Below, piece by piece: positions 2,897 through 40,343 of a DNA stretch of 64,000 nucleotides. Where the stretch lies: IMG/VR virus record IMGVR_UViG_3300011442_000001, positions 28,948 through 92,947 of that record. One strand, written 5' to 3'. Numbering within the stretch: the stretch's first letter is position 1; each line of letters begins with the position of its first letter. A program made the translations under genes and the position numbers. The DNA comes from a virus. Lineage: Duplodnaviria > Caudoviricetes. Below the pieces are notes generated by a model, which saw only the letters and a program-made list of their open reading frames with translations, ran no database searches and had not been told where the DNA came from.

Positions 2897-4096
2897 TTAT
2901 GTACAAACTTCCTCGAAGATGTCACCCCAACGCTGGGCAATCGTCTTCCATTGATAATCAGGTCTTGAGAACTTATCCTTCCCCTTTTCAGAAAAGTACT
3001 TCAATATATCCCTGTCTTTATAGTAAATCTCCAAGCATCTTGCTACTTCTTCGGGAGTTGTTACTCTACCTACTGTTTGACTGTTGTCGAAAGTCCAGTC
3101 ATAGAAGGTCTCCAGTAATAGACCGCTATCTATGAACATCTCCTGACATGAGCTGTGTCTCGGAACAAGTTGAGCCGCTCCAGTTACAGCATGTTCTACA
3201 TTAGTCAATCCCCATCCTTCTCCCATAGAAGTATTGATTCCAACATCACAAGCGTTGTAGATAAGGTTTAGTCTTTCCTTTGAAACTCTTTGAATTCCGT
3301 TGGCAAGGCTGGTGAAGATAAGTCTATTATCCATCTTCCAGCGTTTTGCTTCCTTAACTACGTCAATATGAGCGTCTCTTATTCCACAATGCATATAAAG
3401 CTTTACATTGTCTGGTTTGTCCTCTGCGAATTGGGCAAATCCCTGCATCGTAATATCCAGCTTTTTTCTGGGTTGGTTACGATTGGCATTAAGAACAATG
3501 AAAGTTTCTTCTACATGCTTTAGACCCTTTAACTTGCTTCCAAAAAGTTCCACTTTTGACTGCTTTCTATCTTCACTAATCTGATAGAAGTCTTCTAGGT
3601 CTACTCCGTGAGGCATAACTCCCAGTATCATTTCTGGCATACAACTAGGCTGTGTTACCACGGACTTACCAAACTCAGTATAGGTGTATGCTTCACTGAC
3701 TATATCGAAGTCTCTATACCATTCCGAGTCATGCCATTTAGAATCTACCGGAAAGTAGACTACAATAGGAGGTAACTTTTTGGTTACATTCTTTTTGATG
3801 GCGTCTAGGTAATATGAGATTACCCAAGAGTCATTCAGAATAAATACCAAATCGAAGTCTATTTGGTTCATCAGGCTACACATTCTGTCCAAGCCGTAGA
3901 TATTTCCCATTCCTCTGACCATTGCTGGATAGATTGGGAAGTCATAACTATGTGGGTCTCCACTGTAGTTTACTCCCAAGCCTGTAAAATCGAACCTGTC
4001 TTTGTTGTACTTTATTATGTTATGTGCTACGGTAGAAAATCCAGTTTCTACCACCAAATCGCTTGCAAAAAGAACCTTTAGTTTTTCCTTATCCAT
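2897..4096 (-). CDS. GT-B glycosyltransferase (GT4 family)
   Basis: TGFSTVA N-terminal motif, NRNQPRK, YNACDVGINTSMGEGWGLTNVE (E-x7-E). Confidence 0.9.
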   Translation of the reverse strand: MDKEKLKVLFASDLVVETGFSTVAHNIIKYNKDRFDFTGLGVNYSGDPHSYDFPIYPAMVRGMGNIYGLDRMCSLMNQIDFDLVFILNDSWVISYYLDAIKKNVTKKLPPIVVYFPVDSKWHDSEWYRDFDIVSEAYTYTEFGKSVVTQPSCMPEMILGVMPHGVDLEDFYQISEDRKQSKVELFGSKLKGLKHVEETFIVLNANRNQPRKKLDITMQGFAQFAEDKPDNVKLYMHCGIRDAHIDVVKEAKRWKMDNRLIFTSLANGIQRVSKERLNLIYNACDVGINTSMGEGWGLTNVEHAVTGAAQLVPRHSSCQEMFIDSGLLLETFYDWTFDNSQTVGRVTTPEEVARCLEIYYKDRDILKYFSEKGKDKFSRPDYQWKTIAQRWGDIFEEVCT

Positions 4097-5290: not shown

Positions 5291-6157
5291 TCATAGCGCC
5301 AGCCTGTAAGCGGTGGTTGCATTATTTAAGCCGCCCGCGATATAGACGTAACTGCCAATAGCACATGCCCCGGTTTGCAGGCTGGCATAAGGCAGGGACA
5401 CGGCATGAGTAGTCCATGAGTCCGTCAGTGTGTCATAAACATAAATCGCCGTTGTTCCGGCAAAGGTCGCATCTGCTCCGCCGATCACATAGAGCTTGTT
5501 ACCGATGACCTCCACTTCCTTGTAGCAGGTTCCTGCAGGCAGCGCCGCAACGGTACTCCATGAGTCACCCGCCGGATCATACTTATAGACCGTTGTTACC
5601 GGGTGGAGGGATGTCGGGTAATCGGTCATATCATTTGTTGCACCGATGGCATAAATATATCCATTGCAAGCCGCGCCAAAATCACCAAGAGCCTTTGCAA
5701 CAGGTAGAGCCGCCTTTGTGCTGTCCCATGTGTCGTTGCTCGTGTCATACACGTACATCTGTGTTCGTGGAACATTACTGCCTGACAATCCTCCAAAGAC
5801 GTAAATCTTCGTCCCAATGACGGCGCTCCCCATATCCTCCAACCCAACAGGACAAGCGGTCTTTTCCGTCCATGTGTCCGCAGAAGGGTCATACTCGTAC
5901 ACGTTGCCATAATATGCCGGGACGTTCTGGTTATAGCCGCCGATGTAGTAAAGTTTGCTTCCTACAGCTCGCATGATGGCAGATTGCCGGAACGCCTGTG
6001 CATAAGGCAAATCTGTCAACACTCTCCACTGGTCAACGGATGGGTTGTATTCATACATCTTTTTTCCACTGGCTCCACCGGCGCAATATATCTTGCCGTT
6101 ACATACTTCCATTCCGTGTTGAGACATAGAAGCCGGGATTGTGGCAAGCTGTACCAC
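5291..6157 (-). CDS. Kelch-repeat beta-propeller (probably C-terminal part of a -1 frameshift fusion)
   Basis: Six repeats of kiYviGG...YdP..dtW; no SD before the GTG. Confidence 0.9.
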   Translation of the reverse strand: MVQLATIPASMSQHGMEVCNGKIYCAGGASGKKMYEYNPSVDQWRVLTDLPYAQAFRQSAIMRAVGSKLYYIGGYNQNVPAYYGNVYEYDPSADTWTEKTACPVGLEDMGSAVIGTKIYVFGGLSGSNVPRTQMYVYDTSNDTWDSTKAALPVAKALGDFGAACNGYIYAIGATNDMTDYPTSLHPVTTVYKYDPAGDSWSTVAALPAGTCYKEVEVIGNKLYVIGGADATFAGTTAIYVYDTLTDSWTTHAVSLPYASLQTGACAIGSYVYIAGGLNNATTAYRLAL

Positions 6158-6161
6158 GTTC

Positions 6162-6193
6162 GGCGTATTCGGCTCGCCAGCCTCTAAAAACCC
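6162..6193 (-). promoter_or_regulatory. Putative programmed -1 ribosomal frameshift signal
   Basis: G GGT TTT heptamer (6193-6187) just before TAG, then GGC-T-GGCG-A-GCC-GAATA-CGCC pseudoknot; the -1 frame is continuous with the Kelch ORF. Confidence 0.7.
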
Positions 6194-7593
6194 TGCAACA
6201 CGGCAAGCGCCGCCGCCGGGATGGTGTAGGGATAGGACACGAAGAAAGCGCCGGTTGTAAAGCCTGTCACTTTTGCCGTGGTCAAGAGCGCACCGGATGA
6301 GGCGGACGAATAGGTCAGGACGGTTCCCGCTGCATTGGCAGGGTTGATAGGTCGCGCCTGTACTCCGATGTGATTGGCCGCCAGAACATTATTGAAGATC
6401 CAAATCTGGTAGACCGTCGCGTTTGTCCACGTCCGCGCCTGGGATGCGCGCTCGGTGGCTGTTCCACTAACTACCTCAAATATTTTCATGGTGCTGTTGG
6501 CCTGGTCGCATTGGATATACCAGCGATCATTATCTGATGTGTAACGGAGATTGATTATCAATACTTCATTCGTGGCACACGTCCACTTGAAATAAATGTA
6601 CCCGTTCGCATCGTGCGTGATTGAGTCGCCGCTGGCCGGTGTCTGGTTATTCCCGGTTGCGATCCCCGTCAGGCTGTTCCAGGGACTAGGCAGGATTGCG
6701 ACCTTCATTGCGTCAACTGTGAAATTTAAAGCATTGGCGCGGACACCTACGCCCGGATACCAGTTACCCGTCCCGGTCAAATCGGCCCAAATAAATTTAT
6801 CTCCAATCACTTCTAGTGCGCCGGTGGTTTGCAGGATGGAATAGCGCACATGCGGGAAGGAGAGAGTGACAATCAGATTACCTGATGTGAAACCATCGCT
6901 GGCAGCGGAGATTATGTTATTTCCCGCCGCCACGATGTTTGTAGTTGCCCTGGCGTTCCCTGCCGCAGTGTTCCCCCATCCCGCGATAACGTTTGTGTTG
7001 CCTGTGGTCACGGCGGCAAGCGTGATTGCAGCACATAGCCCAGCGGCCCGCGTGGTCTGTGGCCCTGAGTATCCTTCATTGTTTACGCCCGTCCCATTGA
7101 CCACCAGTTTCCCACCGGCAAGGCTCATAATGCTATTCGCGTCCGTAATTGTCGCGGTTCCTGGCCCCGGCTCCGCTGTGCGCGGCGTGGCAATTGGCGC
7201 GGCGTCGTCCGTGGTAAACGTATCGTTGAACAACATCAAAATGGTGACAATGCTAAATTGAGTTGCGGCAACGTTGCCATTCCCGGCCCCGTCTACACAG
7301 ACACCCGCGCCAATATCCACGGTCATTGTCCCGGCTACGGACGGCGCAAGGTCGAACGTGTAAACCGCTCCCGATCCGGCGAAGTTTGACAATGTAACCG
7401 TCCCGCCCGAAATAGCTGCGGTCACATCGCCCGAAGTAAACCCGGTCACGGTCTCCGAGAATGTAGCCGTGAAATTCAGCGGCGTGGTTGCCGTTGGCCC
7501 GGTCTGCGTGCAGGTGATCGCCACAGTCGGCGCGATGTTGTCAGCCGCTCCCCCACTCGCCAGGTACATCAATAACGCCGCGCGCCTATTCAT
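6184..7593 (-). CDS. Virion-associated Ig-like (Big) plus beta-sandwich protein
   Basis: D.IAPTV.I...TATFSE.VTGF...D.AGN Big-like motif; Thr/Ala/Gly-rich; GGAGG RBS. Confidence 0.75.
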   Translation of the reverse strand: MNRRAALLMYLASGGAADNIAPTVAITCTQTGPTATTPLNFTATFSETVTGFTSGDVTAAISGGTVTLSNFAGSGAVYTFDLAPSVAGTMTVDIGAGVCVDGAGNGNVAATQFSIVTILMLFNDTFTTDDAAPIATPRTAEPGPGTATITDANSIMSLAGGKLVVNGTGVNNEGYSGPQTTRAAGLCAAITLAAVTTGNTNVIAGWGNTAAGNARATTNIVAAGNNIISAASDGFTSGNLIVTLSFPHVRYSILQTTGALEVIGDKFIWADLTGTGNWYPGVGVRANALNFTVDAMKVAILPSPWNSLTGIATGNNQTPASGDSITHDANGYIYFKWTCATNEVLIINLRYTSDNDRWYIQCDQANSTMKIFEVVSGTATERASQARTWTNATVYQIWIFNNVLAANHIGVQARPINPANAAGTVLTYSSASSGALLTTAKVTGFTTGAFFVSYPYTIPAAALAVLQGF

Positions 7594-8191: not shown

Positions 8192-8629
8192 TTAGCTTAC
8201 GTTTCTAGAAACGTTTTTTAGAGCCATAAGCTCTCCAATGCATAAGTAGTCCTGCTCAGTATAGTGTGAATTATTTCCTCTTTCTATTCTACTTAAACAA
8301 TAATTTATCATTATGTCTAATTCTTCTCTCTTGCAAAAAGAATAATTCACAACCATTTCACAAAATTTCAGTATTTCCTTTAGTCCAGTTATAACTAATC
8401 TATAAATAGTACCGTTCTTAGCAGAACGAAGGTGACAACCTATGTTATTAGATTCCAGGAATACTTCAATTTGGTTCAGTATTTTTCTATCTCTCTGTGT
8501 TATAACTATTTGTGGAAGAATTAGTTCTGTCTTTATTTCTTTGTTTCTTCCATATCTAAAATGAGAATATAGTCCAACACTCCCTTCCCCATCAAAAAAT
8601 CCTGCTAAATATTCAATTGTAATTTTCAT
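8192..8629 (-). CDS. Free-standing LAGLIDADG homing endonuclease
   Basis: YLAGFFDGEG motif; probable start MKITIEY at 8629 with GGAGG RBS. Confidence 0.9.
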   Translation of the reverse strand: MKITIEYLAGFFDGEGSVGLYSHFRYGRNKEIKTELILPQIVITQRDRKILNQIEVFLESNNIGCHLRSAKNGTIYRLVITGLKEILKFCEMVVNYSFCKREELDIMINYCLSRIERGNNSHYTEQDYLCIGELMALKNVSRNVS

Positions 8630-8729
8630 TCTACCTCCGATAGTAGAATGAGGGGAGAGTGACATCTTCGGACGGATGCCATTCGCTTTTCCGAAAGCTA
8701 TCTCCCCTCAATATTATTTTATTTACAGG

Positions 8730-9331: not shown

Positions 9332-10021
9332 CGAATTGTTACTACTTTTATTTTTAAAAGCGGTTATACATTTCTGTATAACTCTTTATGTCTCCATAAA
9401 GACCGGACTATATCTTCGCTAAAAAGCGTTTGGCATATAGTCTCTGAGGATTTTGAGAGATTTTTCTACTTTATCTTGATGTCCATGCAATAACTTAATT
9501 CTTCTCATTATATCTACATCCCATTCGTCATAATAAACGTTCTTACTTCCAATCATAGAGTATCTCTTACTACACCACTCTTGAAGTAAAATAGCTTCTT
9601 CTTTTTTACCTACTAGATTTTCAATTAGTATAGGAAGAAACTTCATAACTCTTCTTATACCAGATACTTCTATTCTGTATCTCTTTTTCCACTTTTCTGT
9701 AGCTTCCTTTTCGTTTACCCAGAAAGGAATTTCTAGTAGCTTTAGTATTTCTATTATTTTATTTATTATTTGAATATCTGTATTTATAATTGTTATTACT
9801 GGTCTTATCAATGGTTGCTTGCCTTTTCTTGCGTGAAAGGTCATTGTTACTGTCCCTTCACCATCAATTATTCCGCATAACCAACCAATATCTCTCAATC
9901 TTTCCTGCTGATTTTCCATTTTTATTATCCTTTCTCTTGTCACTTAGTTAGTAAGAAGGCTTTAGGAGGTTCCAGCATTTAGCCAAATTTTACATGAGCA
10001 GGGCTGTAGGGGATAATCCTA
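9332..10021 (-). mobile_element. Group I intron (690 nt) in the major capsid gene
   Basis: P1 ATGAGT/GCTCAT with U.G at the 5' splice site; P AAATGCTGGAA, Q AATCAGCAGG, R TCAGAGACTATATG, S AAGATATAGTCC; terminal G at 9332. Confidence 0.93.
9419..9919 (-). CDS. Intron-encoded LAGLIDADG homing endonuclease
   Basis: WLCGIIDGEG motif; start MENQQ with AAGGA RBS; overlaps the intron Q and R core elements. Confidence 0.9.
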   Translation of the reverse strand: MENQQERLRDIGWLCGIIDGEGTVTMTFHARKGKQPLIRPVITIINTDIQIINKIIEILKLLEIPFWVNEKEATEKWKKRYRIEVSGIRRVMKFLPILIENLVGKKEEAILLQEWCSKRYSMIGSKNVYYDEWDVDIMRRIKLLHGHQDKVEKSLKILRDYMPNAF

Positions 10022-12265: not shown

Positions 12266-13801
12266 TCATTCTCCAGAACCAGTTTTAGCCGGTGTTTTCG
12301 GTTTTATAGCTGGCTTTTTATCCCCATTAGGTTGCTGTCCTTCTAGAAGAATTGAGTTTTTACTATTAGGAGTAGGCCCGAACTCAGACAAGCCTCTGTC
12401 TTTGAGTTCTTTTGTCTCCTCTTCTAGTAAAGCTACTTCTTTGCTAAACTCGAAACCAAGTTCCTTGTCTACGGAAGTTCTACTTAGACCACCACTCTCG
12501 TAAGAGAAACGTAGGCCGTCTAGGAAGTTTTGGAATTTGTGGAGGTTCATTGCTTTGAATGAAACCGTTGGAACGCTATTGAATTTGTTGCGTTTTGATA
12601 TTTCCAAACAAATGTCCCTAAGAACTTCTATGATTTTTCTTCTAAATCCTTCAGCAGTTTTTATAGGAGATAGTGTAGCTATTTCGGAATCGGATGTTCC
12701 AGATTTCTGTGCTTCTCCGGTAATCAGAACTCTAGGAAACCCTAGTCCGAACAAAATTTCCTCGTTGATGTCATTATACTTTCCGACATTCAGTAATGTT
12801 TCTGTTTCAGGAAAGACCCAGTTTATCTCTACCGTGTGATTTGTGATTAGCTGGAAAATTCTTTCCAAAGTATTTGCATCCCGCCCTCTCATTCTTAGCT
12901 GAGATGCAATGCTCTCTACGTACTCTGCGTCTTCTTCAGATTGTGTAATAGGGAAATCCTTATCACCAATCTTAACGTGCATGATGGCACTGATAACCTT
13001 ATCCATAATCGAGTAGTCCATTCTACGCATCTTTCTCTTGTGGTGCAAAGCTTCCAGAGCAGATTGAACATATGGAATTGGATAAGGATTGTCAGACGTG
13101 TATTGTCTACGGATAACATAATCGTTTTCCAATAGAAATACTGTCTGACCTTCAATGATTGCCTTTACAAACTCAGGAAACTGAGTTACTAAAGTTTCAT
13201 AGAGTACGGGGTCTTTCGTTCCATCTGGATAAACTCCCTTTGATTTTATGAAGGAGATTACGTCTGTTGGAACCTTTACAAAGTAGGAGGGCTTGTCACC
13301 CAGAACTACTTTCTTAATTTGAATTGTTTGTGGGTCTCTTACCCACATGGAATCTGGAAGTTCCAAGGAGCTATATTTCTTCACTCCAAGAGAGAAGATA
13401 AAGTCCTTGTCTACTTTTCCATATCCTACTTCTGGAACAACAAGTCCAGACAATAAATACTCGGTAGCCATCTGCTCTGCAAAGCAAACCATCTTTGGTG
13501 CTATTGCTTCGAAGACTCTGAATTCATTGTCAGAGAGTTTGTTCTTGGAGAAAACCAAATCGGTAATTCCAATCTCCACCAGTTTATCTATCACTGTGGA
13601 AACGAGAGGCTCTGTTTTGTAGAAGAATCTACTATGCTGAATCGAAAGCAGAAAGTCAGTCTGCTGATTCACTGTTGTTGTAAACTTGGGTACGACAGTC
13701 CAAGGGTTATCAGTCTGTTGAAGCAGTTCTGCCTTTCCCTTAGATAGTTGCTTATCCTTTGGTGCTACTGCTATTGCAGTTTTCTTTTTAGTTGTTGTCA
13801 T
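12266..13801 (-). CDS. Portal protein
   Basis: 511 aa between TerL and protease; helical portal-like pattern. Confidence 0.8.
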   Translation of the reverse strand: MTTTKKKTAIAVAPKDKQLSKGKAELLQQTDNPWTVVPKFTTTVNQQTDFLLSIQHSRFFYKTEPLVSTVIDKLVEIGITDLVFSKNKLSDNEFRVFEAIAPKMVCFAEQMATEYLLSGLVVPEVGYGKVDKDFIFSLGVKKYSSLELPDSMWVRDPQTIQIKKVVLGDKPSYFVKVPTDVISFIKSKGVYPDGTKDPVLYETLVTQFPEFVKAIIEGQTVFLLENDYVIRRQYTSDNPYPIPYVQSALEALHHKRKMRRMDYSIMDKVISAIMHVKIGDKDFPITQSEEDAEYVESIASQLRMRGRDANTLERIFQLITNHTVEINWVFPETETLLNVGKYNDINEEILFGLGFPRVLITGEAQKSGTSDSEIATLSPIKTAEGFRRKIIEVLRDICLEISKRNKFNSVPTVSFKAMNLHKFQNFLDGLRFSYESGGLSRTSVDKELGFEFSKEVALLEEETKELKDRGLSEFGPTPNSKNSILLEGQQPNGDKKPAIKPKTPAKTGSGE

Positions 13802-13802
13802 A

Positions 13803-15347
13803 TTATATCCATAACGCCTTGAGTAATTTTACCTTGCGAGTGGCTTGTGAGAATTCCATTGTCATATGGAATGCTCCTACTCCACACAGCATCGCAGAAG
13901 TAAAGTGGTCTTCTCCACGTTTGCCTCCTCTTTCTGTCAGAGTCTTGTAAGAAATATCCCCATTTGGATTTTTAGTATAGGTCATTCTTTCCAGTTCAGT
14001 AACCAAGTCCAAGTCAGTTGAGGAGTAAACAACTCTGTGATTGTTTGTCATCTCTTGCAGAATGGAAACGAAGAATGGTTTTAGCTTTACTTTGTTTTCT
14101 TCCCCGTCAGAGTTTATTCCCAATGAAAGCCATGATGAAAAGTTTACGGGGTATATTCTTTTCTTGTAATTCTTATGAACATAGTCTGTATGTTCCTGCC
14201 AAGTCTGAATGGAATTGAGACCGGCATTACCGGCATCCACGGCAATCAGCATTGGGCCGTACTTTGTATCCAAGAAATCAATTAACTTCTCCTGAACCGG
14301 ATAGGCAACCTTGGTTAGCTTAACTCTACAGTGTATTTTCAGTCTATCCTTTTCGTCTAGATAGAAAACTACAATAGCCGTAGGTTCCGTGTACCCCATG
14401 TCTATTCCAAACAATATACCATAGTTTTGTGGAGGAAGCGGAAGTAAGTCCAGCTTGGTAATCATTTCTGTAATACCTTCTGCACGAATACCATCAATTT
14501 CTACTTTGTAAACTGGATAGCTGTCTATCTTCATCAGGTTTCTATCGAACAGTGCGAAGACAGGTCTTCCGTGCTGGCCCAGAACATAGTGGGTATAGTC
14601 TTCTGAATCTTCTCCACCGTACTGTGCTTTGGCATCTTCTATATCCTGCTCTGTAATTCTAGGATTATCAAAGGCAGAAACTCTGTGCTTGCTGTAGGCA
14701 TCATTTTCCATGTCTACTGTGTAGAGAACATTATGCTCTCTCATTCCAGTAGGTACTCCTGATACCAGTTCTCTGTGTCCGGGTGTCCACACATTTAGAG
14801 ATGGTTGCATTTCGTTGAAGGCATTGTTAGGAAAATATCCACCTTCGTCTACCTCAATCCAAGGAGTGTGCAAAGCAATTAGGTTCGCCCCTGTTCCAGA
14901 TTGTCCAGCAATGCGGCATAGCAATACAGCACCGTTCTTCAGTGTAATCTTAAACTCAGAACTATTTACTCCGCTCTTTGTGTCAATGAAATTCTTTAGG
15001 AAGGAGTTTGTCTTGAACAGTCTAACCAGATTGGTAAATACAGGTTCAAGGTGAACTTTGCTAGGAACCGTAAATAAAACATAGTCGTCAGGAAAGATGT
15101 TGTAGACTAAAATCCAGAGAAGTAATGAATACTGACTAACTGTTTTTCCTGTGGCACGAGCAGTACAAATGGAAACCTTTGGATGAAAGTCTGCCATTAT
15201 CTCTACCTGATACCAAGAGAATCCGAAAGGTTCGTCAAGTCCTTCGTCGTTATCTATGTTGTAGATAAATTCGGGGGCTAGGACTGGGTTCTTTAGTATT
15301 TCATAAAGTATTAAGTCTTCTTGTGTTACTTTCTCGATAATCGCCAT
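13803..15347 (-). CDS. terL: Terminase large subunit
   Basis: Walker A ARATGKT, Walker B VDE, RNase H-like GIDMG and DH. Confidence 0.9.
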   Translation of the reverse strand: MAIIEKVTQEDLILYEILKNPVLAPEFIYNIDNDEGLDEPFGFSWYQVEIMADFHPKVSICTARATGKTVSQYSLLLWILVYNIFPDDYVLFTVPSKVHLEPVFTNLVRLFKTNSFLKNFIDTKSGVNSSEFKITLKNGAVLLCRIAGQSGTGANLIALHTPWIEVDEGGYFPNNAFNEMQPSLNVWTPGHRELVSGVPTGMREHNVLYTVDMENDAYSKHRVSAFDNPRITEQDIEDAKAQYGGEDSEDYTHYVLGQHGRPVFALFDRNLMKIDSYPVYKVEIDGIRAEGITEMITKLDLLPLPPQNYGILFGIDMGYTEPTAIVVFYLDEKDRLKIHCRVKLTKVAYPVQEKLIDFLDTKYGPMLIAVDAGNAGLNSIQTWQEHTDYVHKNYKKRIYPVNFSSWLSLGINSDGEENKVKLKPFFVSILQEMTNNHRVVYSSTDLDLVTELERMTYTKNPNGDISYKTLTERGGKRGEDHFTSAMLCGVGAFHMTMEFSQATRKVKLLKALWI

Positions 15348-34288: not shown

Positions 34289-34365
34289 TGGTATGGGAGA
34301 GAGGCTTCGAACCTCCACGCACTCGCTTCCAAAGCGAGCCATCTGCCAGTTGAACGTACTCCCAT
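34289..34365 (-). tRNA. tRNA-Pro(UGG)
   Basis: Cloverleaf; CTCGC-TTTGGAA-GCGAG; encoded CCA. Confidence 0.9.
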
Positions 34366-34415
34366 ATATGCATCCGAGTTTTTTACAGAAACCCGGAAGG
34401 GAAAACTGGCAATAG

Positions 34416-34488
34416 AGCCTCCACTCAGGAGTTGAACCGAGTTCTGCCGTTTACAGGACGGCGGTTTTACCGCATAAACTACAGAGGC
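34416..34488 (-). tRNA. tRNA-Thr(UGU)
   Basis: GCCGT-CCTGTAA-ACGGC; C33. Confidence 0.8.
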
Positions 34489-34493
34489 ATTTG

Positions 34494-34576
34494 TTTGGCG
34501 GAAAGTATTTGGGAGGCTGTGACGGCGGGGTTCTCACCCGCTCGTCACAAAATTTAAAGGAACTTTCTGTGCCAAA
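34494..34576 (-). ncRNA. Y-RNA-like motif, copy 1, with internal tRNA minihelix
   Basis: GGC-ACAG-AAAGT-TCCTTTA...ACTTT-CC-GCC; loop holds a 7+5 bp minihelix. Confidence 0.75.
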
Positions 34577-34577
34577 G

Positions 34578-34649
34578 TATGTCCCAAAGGTATCGAGCCT
34601 TCCTACTCCGCTTTTCAGGCAGAAGCTAATCCATCTCAGCTAGGGACAT
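34578..34649 (-). tRNA. tRNA-Phe(GAA)
   Basis: TCTGC-CTGAAAA-GCGGA. Confidence 0.85.
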
Positions 34650-34654
34650 ATAAA

Positions 34655-34879
34655 CTATTTAATTTTTCTGGTACTACGTTTGGTAATCTTCATTTCTCCT
34701 TTATCTACAGGAGGGACATTCTTCTTGAATATTCTAATTACTCCAGCAACTTCAAAAACTAGTTCCAAAGTTCCAAGACCAATAACATAATTGAAGCTTG
34801 ACATGGAAACTGCATTGCATCCTGCCGCAGTACACATAATAACCATGCTGTGAAACAAAAGCCAAATATAGAATACCAT
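34655..34879 (-). CDS. Small membrane protein, C-x4-C family paralog
   Basis: Hydrophobic-CTAAGC-...GTLELVFE-basic tail. Confidence 0.65.
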   Translation of the reverse strand: MVFYIWLLFHSMVIMCTAAGCNAVSMSSFNYVIGLGTLELVFEVAGVIRIFKKNVPPVDKGEMKITKRSTRKIK

Positions 34880-34882
34880 TAT

Positions 34883-35050
34883 CTATTTTCCTCTTTTGTA
34901 AATTCCTATAACACCTTTTATTTCAACTACCATTTCTACCCCTCCGACCACAGCTATTGTAGCAAGGGCTTCAGGAGAACTTGGAGTACAGCCCGCCTCA
35001 TTACAGGCAATTACAATTCTCCACAGCATAAAGAATAAATATATAGTCAT
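34883..35050 (-). CDS. Small membrane protein, C-x4-C family paralog (55 aa, not in track)
   Basis: MTIYLFFMLWRIVIACNEAGC...GGVEMVVEIKGVIGIYKRGK; AAGGA RBS. Confidence 0.65.
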   Translation of the reverse strand: MTIYLFFMLWRIVIACNEAGCTPSSPEALATIAVVGGVEMVVEIKGVIGIYKRGK

Positions 35051-35067
35051 GTTAAAATTCCTTTCTA

Positions 35068-35141
35068 GGTAGCGGACACGGCAATCGAAACCGTTTTTTC
35101 AAGTTTATGAGACTTGTCAGATGCCTTACCTGCCGTCCGCA
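35068..35141 (-). tRNA. tRNA-Met(CAU), initiator-like
   Basis: CAAGT-CTCATAA-ACTTG; 1:72 mismatch. Confidence 0.8.
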
Positions 35142-35146
35142 TCGTA

Positions 35147-35311
35147 TTATTCTTTCTTTCTATAAATCCTAATTATGTTAGGGATTTCGTAAATCATTTC
35201 CAGAAGACCCAATCCTAGCATGGCTTCAAAACTACCTACGCTTATTGAATAGCAACTAGAACCTACACACTCTATGACATATATCCCCAAAGATATTATT
35301 AAAGTAATCAT
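35147..35311 (-). CDS. Small membrane protein, C-x4-C family paralog (54 aa, not in track)
   Basis: MITLIISLGIYVIECVGSSC...GLLEMIYEIPNIIRIYRKKE. Confidence 0.65.
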   Translation of the reverse strand: MITLIISLGIYVIECVGSSCYSISVGSFEAMLGLGLLEMIYEIPNIIRIYRKKE

Positions 35312-35499
35312 TTTTCTTTATCCTTATCCTTCTTCTTGGTAAGTTTTTTATAGAAACGATAGCCACCAATTTCTATAAGCAATTCCAAAAATCCAAATTG
35401 CACCATATTAGCTACAGCTTCGTAGGGAACTTGCACACATTTTCCTGTATAAGTCAGGCATTGCCATGCTAAACCAATATGCAGAATAAATACTAACAT
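35308..35499 (-). CDS. Small membrane protein, C-x6-C family paralog
   Basis: Hydrophobic-CLTYTGKC-...GFLELLIE-basic tail. Confidence 0.65.
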   Translation of the reverse strand: MLVFILHIGLAWQCLTYTGKCVQVPYEAVANMVQFGFLELLIEIGGYRFYKKLTKKKDKDKEK

Positions 35500-35596
35500 T
35501 TTAGTTTCCTATACCACACATACACCTAATCTTCTTTATGTTAGGTTTGTGGATTAGAGATATTCTTACAAGGATTAAAATTAATATTTTCATAAG

Positions 35597-35670
35597 CGGT
35601 CTGTAAGGGTCTCGAACCCTCAACCTTTGCCTTGACAGGGCAACGCTCTGACCAATTGAGCTAACAAACC
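35597..35670 (-). tRNA. tRNA-Asp(GUC)
   Basis: TTGCC-CTGTCAA-GGCAA. Confidence 0.92.
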
Positions 35671-35672
35671 AT

Positions 35673-36002
35673 TTAAAAGTCTTTCCCTAGTTGCTTTATC
35701 ATATTACAGTTGGCACATAAAGTCTGGTATCCTTCTGGATAATTATTATCTACTATCCATTTATAGAAGTTCCATCCAGAGAATTTCTTACTTCCACCCA
35801 CAGCCATTCTTTCTTCTGCTCCATTGTTGTTTATATGGTCTAGTTGTAAGGCTCTTATGTCGGAGAACCCACATTTAGCACAGATATTTCCGTAATAATT
35901 CAATACAAGAGTTTTATATCTTCTTCTATTATTTTTATTGCGAATTCTAGTTTCTTCTTTATGTTCTCCCCTGTACAGTTTAAAATAGTCCGTGCTAATC
36001 AT
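35673..36002 (-). CDS. HNH endonuclease
   Basis: CAKC..LQLDHI..LCANCN. Confidence 0.8.
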   Translation of the reverse strand: MISTDYFKLYRGEHKEETRIRNKNNRRRYKTLVLNYYGNICAKCGFSDIRALQLDHINNNGAEERMAVGGSKKFSGWNFYKWIVDNNYPEGYQTLCANCNMIKQLGKDF

Positions 36003-36041
36003 AACAAACCTCTATATCAATGAACCATTAAAAATCTTCAG

Positions 36042-36114
36042 TGTTCTCGACGGGACTCGAACCCGTATGAAGTGATTGAGAGTCACCTATGCTAGTCCTT
36101 TGCATTACAAGAAC
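36042..36114 (-). tRNA. tRNA-Glu(CUC)
   Basis: GGTGA-CTCTCAA-TCACT. Confidence 0.88.
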
Positions 36115-36118
36115 ATAT

Positions 36119-36212
36119 TTGAGAAGGTAGGTCTTTCTCCTACTAACGGTTTTCACGTTTCCAGATTGACTAGTCGCATAGACTGAGCATGTCCACTCCA
36201 TGCCGCTTCTCT
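36119..36212 (-). ncRNA. tRNA-like RNA without a canonical anticodon arm
   Basis: GAGAAG/CTTCTC acceptor-like stem; GCATG-GAGTGGA-CATGC D-like arm; GTAGG-AGAAAGA-CCTAC T-like arm. Confidence 0.55.
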
Positions 36213-36214
36213 AG

Positions 36215-36285
36215 AGAGTCCAGTCAGAATTGAACTGACCATTACGGTTTTGCAGACCGCTCCCTAACCGATTGGGTTTAGACTC
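36215..36285 (-). tRNA. tRNA-Cys(GCA)
   Basis: GCGGT-CTGCAAA-ACCGT; U73. Confidence 0.88.
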
Positions 36286-36759
36286 ATTTATTCATTATCA
36301 ATAAAACAATCAAAAGAAATACCAGTACTACAATTCTTATTACCAAGCTTTCGGGTCTTTTTCTTTCTGGAATAGGCCCGTAGCTTTTTGCTATCTTCCT
36401 TGAAGGGGGCTTAATATATTTCATTATTAAAACACCATTAGTACTAAGGGTACTGTAGTTATACAATCAAAGAATAAACATAGAGGCCAATACCACCAAG
36501 GGAACTTATATTTTCTAAATAAAACGCCTCTAGCCAGAAAAAATAAAAACATTCTTCCTCCTAACTATGACAGGTCATGCAGACCCATTGTTCTTTTCTC
36601 ACAATAAACACAATAGAGCGGAGCAAAGATGAATTGAGGTTTCATTTGTAATAAACTTTTCTAAGGAGGTCAGCAAGCTTATCTATCAGAAGTGAATTTC
36701 TATTGTCCAAAAATCTAATAAATCTTTTCATGCAATTTCCTTTATTGGGCATCTAGCAG

Positions 36760-36831
36760 TATCTCACTAGCGACTCGAACGCCAATTGCGAAGTTCGTAG
36801 CTTCGTATCCTATCCTTTGAATGAGTGAGAC
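36760..36831 (-). tRNA. tRNA-Arg(ACG)
   Basis: CGAAG-CTACGAA-CTTCG; overlaps the HNH 3' end. Confidence 0.88.
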
Positions 36832-37178
36832 ATTTTGTATTTTCTAAAATTTCCACGTTTAGCAGTTATTCTTTTATGACAATTAGCACAACGAACTTCA
36901 CACTTTCCTATCTCTTTTTGTAATCGTTCTAAACTACAATTGTATAGACTGGCAATGTTAGCTTCTTTAGTTCCCGTAACGTGGTCAAATTCTAAAACGA
37001 TTGGGTCAGTTTCTCCACAATCAACACACGGATGTTCAGATAGATATTTGTCTATGTGTTCAAAGTTTCTTTTAGTTACAGTTTCTTTATTTCTTCTAGC
37101 CTTATCCAAATAGTATTGTTTATTTTCTTTATAATGCTTTTTTCTATTTTGTAACTGTTTCTCTCTGTCTTTGTACAT
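36810..37178 (-). CDS. HNH endonuclease
   Basis: CVDCG..LEFDHV..KCEVRCANCH. Confidence 0.88.
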   Translation of the reverse strand: MYKDREKQLQNRKKHYKENKQYYLDKARRNKETVTKRNFEHIDKYLSEHPCVDCGETDPIVLEFDHVTGTKEANIASLYNCSLERLQKEIGKCEVRCANCHKRITAKRGNFRKYKMSHSFKG

Positions 37179-37180
37179 AC

Positions 37181-37204
37181 TCTTATCCGTTGAACGATAG
37201 ATGC
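37181..37204 (-). pseudogene. 5' remnant of an earlier tRNA-Arg
   Basis: GCATCTA-TC-GTTCAACGGATAAGA; the complementary 3' remnant TAGATGC-CCA is at 36746-36755. Confidence 0.7.
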
Positions 37205-37321
37205 ATTTTACTTAGTATTTTTTCTTTTGCTTTCAGCTTTGGCAAAAGCAACTCCCAATAAGAATGATGTAAGCATGTAGAAAATGATTTCGCTTATTGG
37301 CATAATTTATTCCTTTCTAGG

Positions 37322-37407
37322 CGGAAGATGAGGGATTCGAACCCCCACCCCGAAATGACGGGGGAAAGTTTAGCAAACTTTTGTGATAACCGTTACACCA
37401 ATCTTCC
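37322..37407 (-). tRNA. tRNA-Ser(GCU)
   Basis: AAAGT-TTGCTAA-ACTTT; long variable arm; G73. Confidence 0.9.
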
Positions 37408-37493
37408 AAGGGGAGGCGTCCTGCCATTATATTAGACGACGAAGGCCAGTTTATGTCACTTCGGGGAGACTCGAACTCCCATTTACTCCAAGG
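37408..37493 (-). other. tRNA halves in permuted order (3' half then 5' half), Glu-like
   Basis: 3' half GGAGT-AAAT-GGGAG-TTCGAGT-CTCCC-CGAAGTG-A, then 5' half GCCTTCG-TC-GTCT..GGC-AGGAC-G-CCTCC-CCTT. Confidence 0.6.
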
Positions 37494-37569
37494 CACACCC
37501 GACAGGATTCGAACCTGCATGTATCCGTTAACCTTTCTGAATGTTAGAAGCATTAGGGTATACGGGTGT
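37494..37569 (-). tRNA. Topologically rearranged tRNA-Arg(UCU)
   Basis: 7-bp acceptor and canonical T-arm; AATG-CTTCTAA-CATT directly after nt 8-14; D-loop-like TAACGGATA lies 3' of the anticodon arm. Confidence 0.7.
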
Positions 37570-37575
37570 ATGGTG

Positions 37576-37647
37576 GGTAACTAACTGGGATTGAACCAGT
37601 TTCCTTCGCTTCACAGGCGAATGTAATACCATTATACCATAGTCACC
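37576..37647 (-). tRNA. tRNA-His(GUG)
   Basis: TTCGC-CTGTGAA-GCGAA; G-1:C73. Confidence 0.9.
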
Positions 37648-37659
37648 ATGATTTGTCAA
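37631..37659 (-). promoter_or_regulatory. Sigma70-type promoter overlapping tRNA-His
   Basis: TTGACA-17 nt-TATAAT with TG; the -10 lies in the His D-arm. Confidence 0.6.
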
Positions 37660-37820
37660 GTACTTTCAGATTCTTTTTCTTTCTCTGATACCTCTACAGC
37701 TTCGTTGTATTGTTCTTCTGTTAGCTCTATCCAGTTGCTAGGAGCCATAGGAACATCAACCTTTATAAGCCTTCCTGTTTCACCATGTTGCCAGTATCTC
37801 ATTTTAACTTCCTTTCTAGG

Positions 37821-37893
37821 TGGATGTAGATGGATTCGAACCACCGAATGTCACCTTATCAGAGTGATGAATTAACCACTTTTCTATACATCC
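37821..37893 (-). tRNA. tRNA-Ile(GAU)
   Basis: TCACT-CTGATAA-GGTGA. Confidence 0.9.
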
Positions 37894-37973
37894 AAACTGC
37901 CAATTTTTTTCTATGCTCTCATACTCAATCAAAGTCTATGAAAATAGTTGACATCTAAAACAGTCCCTCTAGG

Positions 37974-38045
37974 CTCACAAGGAAGGATTTGAACCTTCAT
38001 AGTCCCGATTAACAGTCGGACTCATTACCATTATGATACCTGTGA
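37974..38045 (-). tRNA. tRNA-Asn(GUU)
   Basis: TCCGA-CTGTTAA-TCGGG; G73. Confidence 0.9.
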
Positions 38046-38051
38046 ATATGA

Positions 38052-38177
38052 CCGCTATTTACAGGTCGCTCAGTTTAGTAATGCGACACCGTTTGTTTCT
38101 TTACTTGAAACTTAGCACGGTCAACACTAGCCTTACTATACGTCCGAAGTTGACGAACTGCCCTCTATGAATAGCGG
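38052..38177 (-). ncRNA. Second repeated ncRNA motif, copy 1
   Basis: Closing stem CCGCTATT/AATAGCGG; core GAGGGCAGT...AAGAAACAAAC...CTAAACTGAGCGACCTG. Confidence 0.7.
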
Positions 38178-38179
38178 AG

Positions 38180-38252
38180 TGGACATGAAAGGAGTCGAAC
38201 CTTTACAACACGGCTTATAAGACCGTTACGCTCACCATTACGTTACACGTCC
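38180..38252 (-). tRNA. tRNA-Ile(UAU)
   Basis: ACGGT-CTTATAA-GCCGT. Confidence 0.85.
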
Positions 38253-38258
38253 AAAAGG

Positions 38259-38343
38259 CGGAGAATAAAGGAATCGAACCCTTGTCATTTTACTGACAGC
38301 CACGTTTTCAAGACGTGTTTAACACCACTTGATGCTACTCTCC
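38259..38343 (-). tRNA. tRNA-Ser(UGA)
   Basis: CACGT-CTTGAAA-ACGTG; long variable arm; G73. Confidence 0.88.
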
Positions 38344-38435
38344 GTAATAGTCGGCTTATGAGAAAGACTCTTTATCTACTGTCATTGTCTAGAGTTTTAT
38401 TCCGCTGACAAAAGCGGTGTAGAACTTTCCCATAG

Positions 38436-38517
38436 TGGAAGCGGCGGGACTCGAACCCACGAAGCATTTCTGCGTCTGCTTAAAAGGCAGTTACCATTGC
38501 CACTAGGTAACGCTTCC
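38436..38517 (-). tRNA. tRNA with Lys(UUU) anticodon and long variable arm
   Basis: CTGC-CTTTTAA-GCAG; variable arm GCA-GAAA-TGC. Confidence 0.8.
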
Positions 38518-38672
38518 ATGCAAGGACATTTCGTCGTCCCATGAACGCTGACATTTTAAGTCGTTCAGTGACTCATTGTGCTGATACACAAAATAATTGC
38601 GCCGGTGTTTATCTAACTAGTATAACCTACTTCCACCCACACCAGAAAGTCTAAATAGTAGGTTTGAATTTG

Positions 38673-38746
38673 TGGTCTCTAGAGGACTCAAACCTCTAAC
38701 TTCCTTCGTGTAAAAAAGGCTGTCTAATCAATTGGCATAAGAGACC
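38673..38746 (-). tRNA. tRNA-Val(UAC)
   Basis: CCTTT-TTTACAC-GAAGG. Confidence 0.8.
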
Positions 38747-38806
38747 ATGTATTTAACTTTCGTCTTCGCTCTTTTCTTTCAATCTGTAAATCTTTAATCC
38801 AATCTG

Positions 38807-38879
38807 TGCCACCGGAGAGAATCGAACTCCCACTACTTCTTTAAGAGAGAAGTACACTAAACCGTTATGTTACGGAGGC
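38807..38879 (-). tRNA. tRNA-Lys(CUU)
   Basis: CTTCT-CTCTTAA-AGAAG. Confidence 0.85.
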
Positions 38880-39221
38880 ATTGTAAACAAAAACTTTTAG
38901 TCCTAAACCTTCTGCACATTCTATCATGTGTTTAGTACCCACACTCTGTCCATCCCATATAGCAATCAGGGCATTTGCGTAATGGGCCATCATTCTATTT
39001 CTTCGAATACCTGCACTCTTTCCATACTTAGCCCAGTTAGCAGGAAAGATAACCAAGTCTATCCGGTTCTGTTGAGCATAAAGTTCTCCCCAATGGTCTA
39101 CACCTTTAGCATTTCCGCTAACGACTACATCAATCTCAAAACCGCTTGCTTCTATAGCTTTTTTTACCAAGGTGTAACTTTCTACAGAACGAGAACCTGC
39201 AATAATAACTTTCACAGACAT
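38865..39221 (-). CDS. SLOG/YspA-like (DUF2493) protein
   Basis: IIAGSR, VVSG.AKGVD, W.KYGK.AG.RN, WDG.S.GT.HMI. Confidence 0.85.
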   Translation of the reverse strand: MSVKVIIAGSRSVESYTLVKKAIEASGFEIDVVVSGNAKGVDHWGELYAQQNRIDLVIFPANWAKYGKSAGIRRNRMMAHYANALIAIWDGQSVGTKHMIECAEGLGLKVFVYNASVT

Positions 39222-39232
39222 TCCTTTCTTTG

Positions 39233-39323
39233 TGGGCGTGGGAGGAGTCGAACCTCCATGCTTTCTTTCAAGCTATACTGTTTTACAGACAGCCCCGACT
39301 CAGCCACTATTCGGCTCACGCTC
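39233..39323 (-). tRNA. tRNA-Tyr(GUA)
   Basis: GCTGT-CTGTAAA-ACAGT; long variable arm. Confidence 0.85.
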
Positions 39324-39329
39324 ATACGT

Positions 39330-39382
39330 AGGCGGGAAGTAAAGTTTTCTCCAAATGAAATTTAAAGGAACTTCCTGTGCCT
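39330..39382 (-). ncRNA. Y-RNA-like motif, copy 2
   Basis: GGC-ACAG-GAAGT-TCCTTTA...ACTTC-CC-GCC. Confidence 0.75.
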
Positions 39383-39398
39383 TATTTATTATTTAATT

Positions 39399-39452
39399 GG
39401 CGGAGAGTATTTGTCATATGTAATTGAGTTTTTTAGAGGAACTCTCTATGCC
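39399..39452 (-). ncRNA. Y-RNA-like motif, copy 3
   Basis: GGC-ATAG-AGAGT-TCCTCTA...ACTCT-CC-GCC. Confidence 0.75.
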
Positions 39453-39455
39453 TAG

Positions 39456-39540
39456 TGCGGTTGAGAGGACTCGAACCTCCACGCTTTTAAGGGCAGTACA
39501 TTTTGAGTGTACCGTGTTTGCCAATTACAACCACAACCGC
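39456..39540 (-). tRNA. tRNA-Leu(CAA)
   Basis: GTACA-CTCAAAA-TGTAC; long variable arm. Confidence 0.9.
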
Positions 39541-39566
39541 ATTTTTCTTTATTTGATTGTACCCCT

Positions 39567-39595
39567 ATTATATACCCTTTCTTTTGATTTGTCAA
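39567..39595 (-). promoter_or_regulatory. Sigma70-type promoter within the tRNA array
   Basis: TTGACA-17 nt-TATAAT. Confidence 0.85.
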
Positions 39596-39611
39596 GGGCC
39601 GATTTTTCATG

Positions 39612-39701
39612 TACCTCTCAGTTCAGGTCGCTCAGTTTAGGATGTTTGTTTCTTACCCTGCATAGCTCACTTTGTTTTACTGCCCTCAATGCTGAGAGGT
39701 A
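39612..39701 (-). ncRNA. Second repeated ncRNA motif, copy 2
   Basis: Closing stem TACCTCTCAG/CTGAGAGGTA; same core as 38052-38177. Confidence 0.7.
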
Positions 39702-39702
39702 G

Positions 39703-39776
39703 TGCTTCCGAGTGGAGTCGAACCACCAGATTTCACGGTCTAAACGTGTTGCCTATGCCAATTCGGCTACGGAAGC
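39703..39776 (-). tRNA. tRNA-Leu(UAG), short variable loop
   Basis: CACG-TTTAGAC-CGTG; the HNH stop codon lies in nt 8-10. Confidence 0.8.
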
Positions 39777-40210: not shown

Positions 40211-40272
40211 TTTACACATCACCGTGTAGATTTTAGAGAAGCTAGGATGGGTGAGCATCTTCGCTTCTCTAG

Positions 40273-40343
40273 TGGACATCGGCAGAATTGAACTGCCATC
40301 TTCTCATTGCAGGTGAGAAATAATCCCTTTATACGAGACGCCC
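40273..40343 (-). tRNA. tRNA-Ala(UGC)
   Basis: TCTCA-CCTGCAA-TGAGA; G3.U70 identity pair; C33. Confidence 0.85.

What the first reader, a model, noticed from the sequence alone, without database searches (positions are those of the whole stretch)
6155..6195. Programmed -1 frameshift fusing an Ig-like virion protein to a Kelch propeller
Seen (minus strand): the Ig ORF ends CAG GGT TTT TAG, which is an X XXY YYZ slippery heptamer (G GGU UUU) directly before the stop. After a 4-nt spacer comes a compact H-type pseudoknot (S1 GGC/GCC, S2 GGCG/CGCC, loop GAATA). The -1 frame reads L-E-A-G-E-P-N-T-P-N-V straight into the Kelch ORF, whose GTG has no Shine-Dalgarno. Established: phages use -1 frameshifts to append domains to a fraction of structural subunits. 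Inference: two isoforms (469 aa and about 766 aa), the longer displaying a six-bladed Kelch propeller, an unusual frameshift cargo.
Basis: partly seen in the sequence, partly recalled or inferred. Interest (0 to 1): 0.75.

Follow-up and report, generated by a model that had tools for sequence, protein, structure and literature searches.

The report
Conserved phage frameshift cassette adding Kelch
A phage gene for a sugar-binding, Ig-anchored protein ends in a conserved ribosome-slipping signal, so a fraction of ribosomes probably read on to add a Kelch propeller; the same short signal joins other bodies to other sugar-active domains in unrelated phage contigs.

Summary
On the minus strand the 469-aa ORF (7593..6184) ends with the heptamer G_GGT_TTT (6193..6187) directly before TAG. 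The Kelch ORF lies in the -1 frame, with no start codon before a GTG (6157) that has no Shine-Dalgarno.

- The same 25-nt element (TAG, one base, a small H-type pseudoknot) follows a slip-prone Y_YYT site in five other independent metagenomic phage contigs. The downstream reading frame is always -1.
- Pairwise identity is 0.80 within the element against 0.20-0.24 in its flanks.
- One stem pair covaries. Third-codon positions are fixed inside stems and free in loops.
- The downstream domains differ: Kelch here, GDSL/SGNH esterase twice, a BNR propeller once, and two short tails.
- A relative (P0161) carries body and Kelch in one frame, so the fused protein is a natural architecture.
- An assembly error in the T5 run is very unlikely.

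Independent initiation at the GTG is not excluded. No reads or proteomics could be examined.

It is a new variant of a known kind: C-terminal extension of phage structural proteins by frameshifting. Confidence in a programmed -1 frameshift is about 0.8. Interest is moderate to high.

The parts
6184..7593 (-). ORF1 (469 aa): N-terminal Big_12 Ig-like domain followed by a tandem ConA/galectin-like beta-sandwich body. This is the zero-frame product, ending at TAG.
   Evidence: Big_12, 2.8e-11; family of about 470-aa homologues ending at the same position. AlphaFold model, pLDDT 78, matching tandem galectins, laminin LG4-5 and CBM66.
6187..6193 (-). Slippery heptamer G_GGT_TTT in X_XXY_YYZ register; these are the last two sense codons of ORF1.
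   Evidence: Equivalent position in relatives: A_AAC_CCT (L086, L148, L174), G_GAT_TTT (L147), C_CGC_CCT (L004).
6184..6186 (-). Zero-frame stop TAG directly after the heptamer. It is invariant in all six cassette copies. After a -1 slip the next codon is always TTA (Leu).
   Evidence: alignment A4, columns 13-15 invariant. TAG is a normal stop in 9 of 40 late ORFs; no suppressor tRNA.
6162..6182 (-). Predicted compact H-type pseudoknot. S1 is 6182..6179 with 6174..6171, S2 is 6178..6175 with 6165..6162, and loop 3 is 6170..6166. It starts 4 nt after the heptamer.
   Evidence: 95.8% of cells paired across six sequences, against 29-46% when partners are slid; one compensatory C-G to G-C pair in S1. 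RNAalifold finds S1; identity 0.80 here against 0.20-0.24 in the flanks; third-codon positions are fixed in stems and free in loops.
6158..6187 (-). Linker read only in the -1 frame (L-E-A-G-E-P-N-T-P-N). It has no start codon. GC is about 60%, like coding sequence.
   Evidence: Homologous -1-frame linkers in L086, L148, L147, L004, L174 and in protein P0229.
5291..6157 (-). Six-bladed Kelch beta-propeller in the -1 frame; the coordinates include the stop. The first possible start is GTG 6157, which has no SD.
   Evidence: in the closest relatives the propeller is the C-terminal domain of a longer protein.

Best explanation
The junction is a programmed -1 ribosomal frameshift site. Most ribosomes terminate at TAG and release the 469-aa Ig-plus-lectin protein, which is the form that most relatives make as a stand-alone protein.

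A fraction of ribosomes slip back one base. This happens on G_GGT_TTT with tRNA-Gly and tRNA-Phe, or at least on T_TTT with tRNA-Phe. Two things probably promote the slip: the slowly decoded TAG next to the site, and a compact pseudoknot that begins 4 nt downstream. These ribosomes then read TTA, translate a short Pro/Thr-rich linker and the six-bladed Kelch propeller, and give a 767-aa protein.

The stop-plus-pseudoknot element is a conserved, portable cassette. In other phages it joins different lectin-like bodies to different sugar-active C-terminal domains: GDSL/SGNH esterase and a BNR propeller.

Shown:
- the sequence anatomy;
- conservation of the cassette;
- the fixed frame relation;
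- the natural occurrence of the fused architecture.

Inferred:
- that slipping actually occurs;
- its efficiency;
- the roles of TAG and the pseudoknot;
- that the protein sits on the virion (its gene lies in the head-gene block) and binds glycans.
For: 1. Anatomy as described.

2. Conservation. Five further independent contigs were found (L086, L148, L147, L004/L149, L174). In each, a long ORF ends in a slip-prone Y_YYT followed by TAG and the same pseudoknot. Seventeen nucleotide columns are invariant. Pairwise identity is 0.80 in the element and 0.20-0.24 in its flanks.

3. The downstream sequence is in the -1 frame in all six copies. It encodes a homologous linker, L-x-[A/G]-G-[E/D]-P-x-T. 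The first possible start codon in that frame is not at a conserved place (+27, +35, +2, -10, +2, late) and none has an SD.

4. RNA-level constraint. One compensatory pair in S1, and 95.8% of cells paired. Third-codon positions inside stems are invariant or covarying, while those in loops vary. In-frame fusions in relatives do not carry this linker.

5. The fused architecture is natural. In P0161, residues 21-359 match ORF1 residues 118-466 (E 7e-30). A 12-aa linker and a Kelch domain 48% identical to this one follow in frame. Eight of the nine closest IMG/VR relatives of the Kelch domain have it as the C-terminal domain of an ORF of 550 aa or more. P0022, P0024 and P0034 fuse an SGNH domain in frame at the same point of the family.

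6. The zero-frame stop falls exactly at the conserved C-terminus of the stand-alone family.

7. Protein footprint. 23 of 73 homologues end in Pro (mostly N-P or F-P) and 4 end in G-F. The tail of P0010 and the N-terminus of P0229 overlap in the -1 frame. That overlap fixes A_AAC_CCY TAG plus the linker, followed by an SGNH domain.

8. ORF1 and Kelch form one GC-rich island, 56% and 51% against 40% for the genome, so they were probably acquired as one unit.

9. Literature (PMC5009743): G_GGU_UUU is a highly shift-prone heptamer. G_GAU_UUU with a nearby stop is the PEMV site. Pseudoknots as close as 2 nt to the shift site are known.
Against: - There is no direct evidence of the trans-frame protein. 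No reads, ribosome profiling or proteomics could be examined.
- The pseudoknot stems are only 4 bp each. One compensatory pair in six related sequences is weak statistics (30 of 500 shuffles reach it).
- The MFE fold of the 87 nt downstream is not exceptional (z -1.1).
- A 4-nt spacer is short for classical A/P-site slippage.
- Two copies (L147, L004) lack a canonical X_XXY half.
- Two copies (L004, L174) have only 17-21 codons open in the -1 frame.
- A GTG-initiated Kelch protein would still contain the whole propeller. Stand-alone relatives exist: P0157, P0192, P0154, and the split locus L010.
- The cassette is rare: four contigs in IMG/VR.
Confidence: 0.8

Rival explanations
1. Two separate genes. 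The Kelch protein starts at GTG 6157, for instance by re-initiation of ribosomes that terminated at TAG 26 nt upstream. The conserved element would then be a module boundary kept by recombination, or a coupling signal, not a frameshift signal.
For: - The GTG lies 3 residues before the first conserved strand, so the propeller would be complete.
- Stand-alone Kelch relatives of 285-320 aa exist.
- L010 is a split locus with TAA-c-GTG and no slip site.
- L148 and L004 have a GTG overlapping the TAG, and L147 has an ATG 10 nt upstream.
- 11 of 40 late ORFs lack an SD-like motif.
Against: - The start-codon position is not conserved among cassette copies, whereas the slip site, the TAG and the -1 relation are.
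- The linker upstream of the GTG is conserved as a -1-frame peptide in the window and in L086, although neither has a start codon before it.
- There is no SD before the GTG.
- Every relative above 47% identity has the propeller fused to a preceding domain.
Confidence: 0.1
2. A genuine frameshift mutation: a once in-frame body-Kelch fusion was broken by loss of one T, and the Kelch part is now silent or decaying.
For: In-frame fusions exist in relatives (P0161). A T6-to-T5 deletion would give exactly this sequence. In L004 and L174 the -1 frame is open for only 17-21 codons, which could be decay.
Against: - The Kelch ORF is intact over 288 codons, with all six blades and the invariant family residues.
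- The same frame relation, with the stop at the same nucleotide of a conserved element, recurs in contigs with other slip sequences and other downstream domains. Independent mutations would not produce that.
- In-frame relatives lack this linker.
Confidence: 0.05
3. Assembly or sequencing error: a homopolymer undercall in the T5 run, so that the real gene is one continuous 767-codon ORF.
For: The break lies in a five-T run, which is a classic site for indel errors.
Against: - L147 has the same five-T run followed by AG with the same frame break.
- L086, L148 and L174 break at AAACCCT, which is not a long homopolymer.
- All come from different metagenomes and assemblies.
- The stop coincides with the conserved C-terminus of the stand-alone family.
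Confidence: 0.03

Closest known systems
-1 frameshift extensions of phage major capsid proteins: T3/T7 gene 10A/10B, Lactobacillus phage A2 gp5A/5B, Listeria phages A118 and A500 Cps (as summarised in PMC5009743)
   Same: The slip site lies at the very 3' end of a structural-module gene. There are two products with a common N-terminal part. The longer one carries an extra C-terminal folded domain. A downstream RNA structure acts as stimulator.
   Different: The extended protein here is not the capsid protein but an Ig-plus-lectin accessory protein. The added domain is a 288-aa Kelch propeller rather than a small Ig-like or short extension. The stop-plus-pseudoknot element is conserved at the nucleotide level across different bodies and different added domains, which is not described for those cases. 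No protein evidence exists here.
'Shifty stop' +1 frameshifts in phage tail genes: CCC_UGA in Listeria phages PSA, A118 and A500 tsh; CCC.UAG joining MTP to TpeX in lactococcal 936-group phages; SPP1 (PMC5009743, PMC4759559)
   Same: A Pro (or Phe) codon lies directly before a stop codon. The stop probably acts as a slow-to-decode stimulator. In 936 phages the extension is a carbohydrate-binding domain displayed on the virion.
   Different: The direction is -1 here, with the downstream domain always in the -1 frame: C_CCT or T_TTT before TAG, rather than CCC before the stop. A full X_XXY_YYZ heptamer is present in four of six copies, and a conserved pseudoknot follows.
Ig-like domains added to phage structural proteins by frameshifting (Fraser et al. 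2006, cited in PMC5009743; known to me from that review, the paper itself was not read)
   Same: Accessory, probably glycan-contacting, domains are appended to a fraction of subunits. In some relatives the same domain is fused in frame.
   Different: The review attributes those cases to chance out-of-frame landings of mobile domains. Here one conserved junction element accompanies several different added domains, which points to a reusable signal.
Lambda G/GT tail assembly chaperone frameshift
   Same: -1 slippage on a G_GGN_NNN-type heptamer near the end of the upstream ORF, giving a fixed ratio of two products.
   Different: G/GT products are assembly chaperones that are absent from virions. 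No stop lies directly after the heptamer and no pseudoknot is needed. There is no homology.

Membership tests
Programmed -1 ribosomal frameshift site | Slippery X_XXY_YYZ heptamer in the zero-frame register | tested here: met
   G_GGT_TTT at 6193..6187. Three relatives have A_AAC_CCT. Two (L147, L004) have only the Y_YYT half.
Programmed -1 ribosomal frameshift site | Downstream stimulatory RNA structure at a short distance | tested here: inconclusive
   A pseudoknot with two 4-bp stems starts 4 nt downstream. It is conserved (95.8% of cells paired) and has one compensatory pair. No thermodynamic or chemical test of a pseudoknot was possible, and the MFE z-score is -1.1.
Programmed -1 ribosomal frameshift site | A long -1 ORF overlaps the end of ORF1 and has no initiation signal of its own | tested here: met
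   The -1 frame is open for 78 codons upstream of the first start. That start is a GTG without an SD.
Programmed -1 ribosomal frameshift site | Conservation of the site and of the frame relation in homologues | tested here: met
   Six DNA copies (A4) plus the protein pair P0010/P0229.
Programmed -1 ribosomal frameshift site | Detection of the trans-frame polypeptide | not testable with these tools
Frameshift-extended phage structural proteins (T3/T7 gp10B, A2 gp5B, 936 TpeX type) | The gene encodes a virion component, and both forms are incorporated | tested here: inconclusive
   The gene lies on the late strand, downstream of terL (13803..15347) and portal (12266..13801). Kelch relatives are annotated as virion structural proteins. 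There is no direct evidence.
Kelch beta-propeller (Pfam Kelch_1 / Kelch_6) | Six Kelch blades forming a closed propeller | tested here: met
   Kelch_1 at 9.7e-35. Six Y-x-x-G-G/A strands. Matches to six-bladed Keap1, KLHL and SAKe chains over residues 7-281.
Big_12 bacterial Ig-like domain | Match above the Pfam gathering score | tested here: met
   44 bits against a cut-off of 27, residues 18-112.

The most novel reading that the evidence does not exclude
The 25-nt element (TAG plus mini-pseudoknot, with a Y_YYT slip site in front) is a portable recoding adaptor. It travels between phage genes. Any lectin-like body upstream can then display any downstream module (Kelch, SGNH esterase, BNR propeller) on a set fraction of subunits. 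Its short conserved sequence may also serve as the microhomology at which these modules are exchanged. The widespread N-P, F-P and G-F C-termini of this protein family would then be footprints of the slip site rather than of protein function.
Probability: 0.45. Interest if true: 0.75.

Novelty: new variant of a known kind. Interest (0 to 1): 0.62.

Why it matters
Frameshift-made C-terminal extensions of phage structural proteins are known. They are usually treated as isolated accidents of domain shuffling.

Here one short signal is conserved at the nucleotide level across different upstream bodies and different downstream enzymatic or lectin domains. That would make it a reusable genetic device for displaying glycan-binding or glycan-modifying modules in sub-stoichiometric amounts.

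It gives recoding research a compact, testable bacterial -1 signal: a stop-adjacent slip site and a pseudoknot with two 4-bp stems.

It would improve annotation, because the downstream ORFs are now called as separate genes from arbitrary GTG or TTG starts.

It also hints at how phages tune adhesion to, or degradation of, surface polysaccharides.

Tried and rejected
DNA for P0009 (which also ends L-Q-G-F) and for the many N-P and F-P enders could not be fetched.
- blastn and tblastn of the locus and of ORF1 against GenBank phages found nothing.
- A single-protein scan of IMG/VR with the Kelch ORF and with P0014 found nothing.
- An apparent excess of long -1 ORFs after family members in 29 metagenome loci was rejected as evidence. 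Nearly all are ordinary TAATG or ATGA start/stop overlaps, which automatically place the next gene in the -1 frame.
- L001 (a GH29-like ORF in the -1 frame with no start for 68 nt) and L002 (C_CCT_TTT two codons before TGA, then a CBM+GDSL ORF) lack the cassette. L002 also has an ATG upstream. They are not counted as support.
- L146 was a chance in-frame match.
- The loose 14-base patterns gave about 90-120 hits per collection. Nearly all failed the ORF-context filter.
- The larger 8-bp hairpin in the window's MFE fold is not conserved in the other copies and was set aside.
- Stop-codon reassignment was rejected: no suppressor tRNA, TAG ends 9 of 40 late ORFs, and the zero frame closes again after TAG.
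- A DGR-type target was rejected: the element occurs only once in the 92,947-bp genome.
Full report
**Setting**

The window is part of a 92,947-bp contig with a 123-bp terminal repeat and 40% GC. The late genes run on the minus strand:
- large terminase, 15347..13803;
- portal, 13801..12266;
- further head-region ORFs, including two LAGLIDADG endonuclease ORFs;
- then the two ORFs in question.

The two ORFs form a GC-rich island, 56% and 51% GC.

**Observation**

- ORF1 (7593..6184, 469 aa, P0001) ends CAG GGT TTT TAG.
- The heptamer G_GGT_TTT is in the correct register at 6193..6187, directly before the stop.
- The Kelch ORF (to 5291) is in the -1 frame. That frame is open for 78 codons upstream of its first possible start, GTG 6157.
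- An SD-like motif precedes 29 of 40 late ORFs (ORF1 has GGGAGG). None precedes this GTG.
- Slipping gives a 767-aa product whose junction reads from the L-Q-G-F end into L-E-A-G-E-P-N-T-P-N-V.

- S1 is 4 bp, GGCU/AGCC.
- S2 is GGCG/CGCC.
- Loop 3 is 5 nt.
- The spacer is 4 nt.

On its own, the downstream 87 nt do not fold unusually well (z -1.1).

**What the two proteins are**

ORF1 has a Big_12 Ig-like domain at residues 18-112. The rest is an all-beta body. An AlphaFold model (pLDDT 78) matches tandem galectins, laminin LG4-5 and CBM66, so the body is a tandem ConA-like lectin fold.

Its family has about 70 database members. Most are about 470 aa and end at exactly the position where ORF1 ends. 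Three members (P0022, P0024, P0034) continue in frame at that point into an SGNH hydrolase.

The second ORF is a six-bladed Kelch propeller.

**The fused architecture is natural**

An all-against-library search with the Kelch ORF shows that every relative above 47% identity carries the propeller as the C-terminal domain of a 516-748-aa protein.

P0161 (667 aa) is the key case:
- Its residues 21-359 match ORF1 residues 118-466 (30% identity, E 7e-30).
- A 12-residue linker follows.
- Then comes a Kelch domain 48% identical to ours, all in one frame.

P0036 joins an ORF1-like Ig domain, a different middle part and a Kelch domain 44% identical to ours. Eight of the nine closest IMG/VR loci are in-frame fusions. 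One, L010, is split in the +1 direction with TAA-c-GTG and no slip site.

**The decisive comparison**

L086 (JGI contig Ga0209342_10127159) encodes the closest full-length relative whose DNA could be fetched, 39% identical.
- It ends with A_AAC_CCT directly before TAG.
- The next 22 nt are nearly the same as in the window.
- The -1 frame reads a homologous linker and then a complete GDSL/SGNH hydrolase, Pfam positions 1-175 of 178.
- The first start codon in that frame lies 35 nt after the stop and has no SD.

Pattern scans then found the same element in four more contigs:
- L148: A_AAC_CCT, SGNH domain.
- L147: G_GAT_TTT, a LamG body joined to a 358-aa BNR propeller.
- L004 (also fetched as L149): C_CGC_CCT, a Big_12 plus Disaggr_repeat body.
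- L174: A_AAC_CCT.

In L004 and L174 only 17-21 codons are open in the -1 frame.

The six copies align without gaps (A4).
- Seventeen columns are invariant: the T before the stop, the TAG, and most of both stems.
- Pairwise identity is 0.80 over the stop plus pseudoknot, against 0.20-0.24 in the flanks.
- 95.8% of pseudoknot cells pair, against 29-46% when partners are slid.
- One S1 pair changes from C-G to G-C in two sequences.
- Read in the -1 frame, third-codon positions within the stems are invariant or covarying. Those in the loops vary. This is the pattern expected when an RNA structure constrains a coding sequence.
- The in-frame fusions lack this linker, so the peptide itself is not what is conserved.

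At the protein level, the tail of P0010 and the N-terminus of P0229 overlap in the -1 frame. That overlap fixes the same slip site, stop and linker in front of another SGNH domain.

23 of 73 family members end in Pro (mostly N-P or F-P) and 4 end in G-F. This fits C_CCT-TAG and T_TTT-TAG as the common slip motif.

**Mechanism proposed**

With GGT in the P site and TTT in the A site, the pseudoknot sits at the mRNA entrance. Both tRNAs can re-pair in the -1 frame.

Alternatively, after translocation, peptidyl-tRNA-Phe (or -Pro in relatives) slips on T_TTT (or C_CCT) while the TAG waits for release factor. This second route would explain why the first half of the heptamer is dispensable in L147 and L004.

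The next codon is TTA in every copy.

Literature support comes from the review PMC5009743:
- G_GGU_UUU is among the most shift-prone heptamers.
- G_GAU_UUU with a nearby, functionally important stop is the PEMV site.
- Pseudoknots as close as 2 nt to the shift site are known.

All of these mechanistic steps are inferred.

**Rivals**

- Assembly error is very unlikely. Independent assemblies break at the same nucleotide, three of them at a sequence that is not a long homopolymer.
- A decaying mutant gene does not fit the intact propeller or the conserved element.
- Independent initiation at the GTG remains possible (about 0.1). The propeller would be complete and stand-alone relatives exist. 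It does not explain a conserved -1-frame linker that has no start codon.
- Stop reassignment and a DGR target were excluded.

**Comparison with known systems**

This is the same kind of device as two known groups:
- the -1 extensions of capsid proteins in T3/T7, A2, A118 and A500;
- the +1 'shifty stop' extensions of tail proteins in PSA, SPP1 and 936-group phages. In the last of these the extension adds a carbohydrate-binding domain at CCC.UAG (PMC5009743, PMC4759559).

What differs:
- the direction combined with a stop-adjacent site;
- the mini-pseudoknot;
- above all, one conserved junction that serves several bodies and several added domains.

Kelch domains in phage virion proteins are themselves known.

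**Limits**

- No reads, expression data or proteomics were available.
- The cassette is rare in IMG/VR (four contigs).
- The covariation rests on a single pair.

An earlier first-stage note on this same stretch (e1-5959316) gave the same reading.

Noticed in passing
window 5291-7593: ORF1 and Kelch form a sharp GC-rich island, 51-59% GC in 500-nt windows against about 40% for the genome. This suggests the pair was acquired together from a higher-GC source.
   Followed up: partly
L004 3271-3330 and L174 7654-7722 (minus): In the two cassette copies with only 17-21 codons open in the -1 frame, the stop of that short extension overlaps the ATG of the next gene (ATGA). The next gene may be translationally coupled to the frameshifted ribosomes rather than to the zero-frame stop.
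   Followed up: no
L001 5344-6267: A family member (P0019) is followed by a GH29 alpha-L-fucosidase-like ORF in the -1 frame. Its first start codon (GTG) lies 68 nt after the stop. There is no canonical heptamer and no cassette. The Pfam match begins only at profile position 86.
   Followed up: partly
L002 4980-6066: An Ig-anchored ORF has C_CCT_TTT two codons before TGA. A 356-aa CBM-like plus GDSL ORF follows in the -1 frame, with an ATG 40 nt upstream of the stop. This could be a second, different frameshift junction or an ordinary gene overlap.
   Followed up: partly
proteins P0004-P0062: Many Big_12-anchored phage proteins, including ones with unrelated bodies, end in N-P, F-P, T-P or G-F. 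This may be a footprint of a slip site in front of the stop. Their DNA could not be fetched.
   Followed up: partly
L010 2980-3000: A Kelch relative is split from its upstream ORF by TAA-c-GTG, in the +1 direction and with no slip site. A separate Kelch gene with a GTG start therefore does occur.
   Followed up: partly
window 34289-41320: A cluster of 22 tRNA genes lies on the minus strand. It includes tRNA-Phe(GAA) and tRNA-Pro(UGG), the tRNAs that would slip at this kind of site. There is no suppressor tRNA and no tRNA-Leu(UAA).
   Followed up: no
window 8192-8665 and 9419-9943: Two LAGLIDADG-type homing endonuclease ORFs lie in the head-gene region just upstream of the locus. Earlier first-stage notes propose an intron-split capsid gene here; I did not test this.
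   Followed up: no
L432 8273 and L429 (minus) 577: Two IMG/VR contigs have CAC CCT TAG followed by a G-rich variant of the element and a 26-codon Gly/Ser-rich -1 extension after a roughly 200-aa ORF. This may be a distant variant or chance.
   Followed up: no
window 2897-4096: A GT4-type glycosyltransferase (phrog_2170, 2e-32) lies a few genes downstream of the Kelch ORF, within the structural gene block.
   Followed up: no
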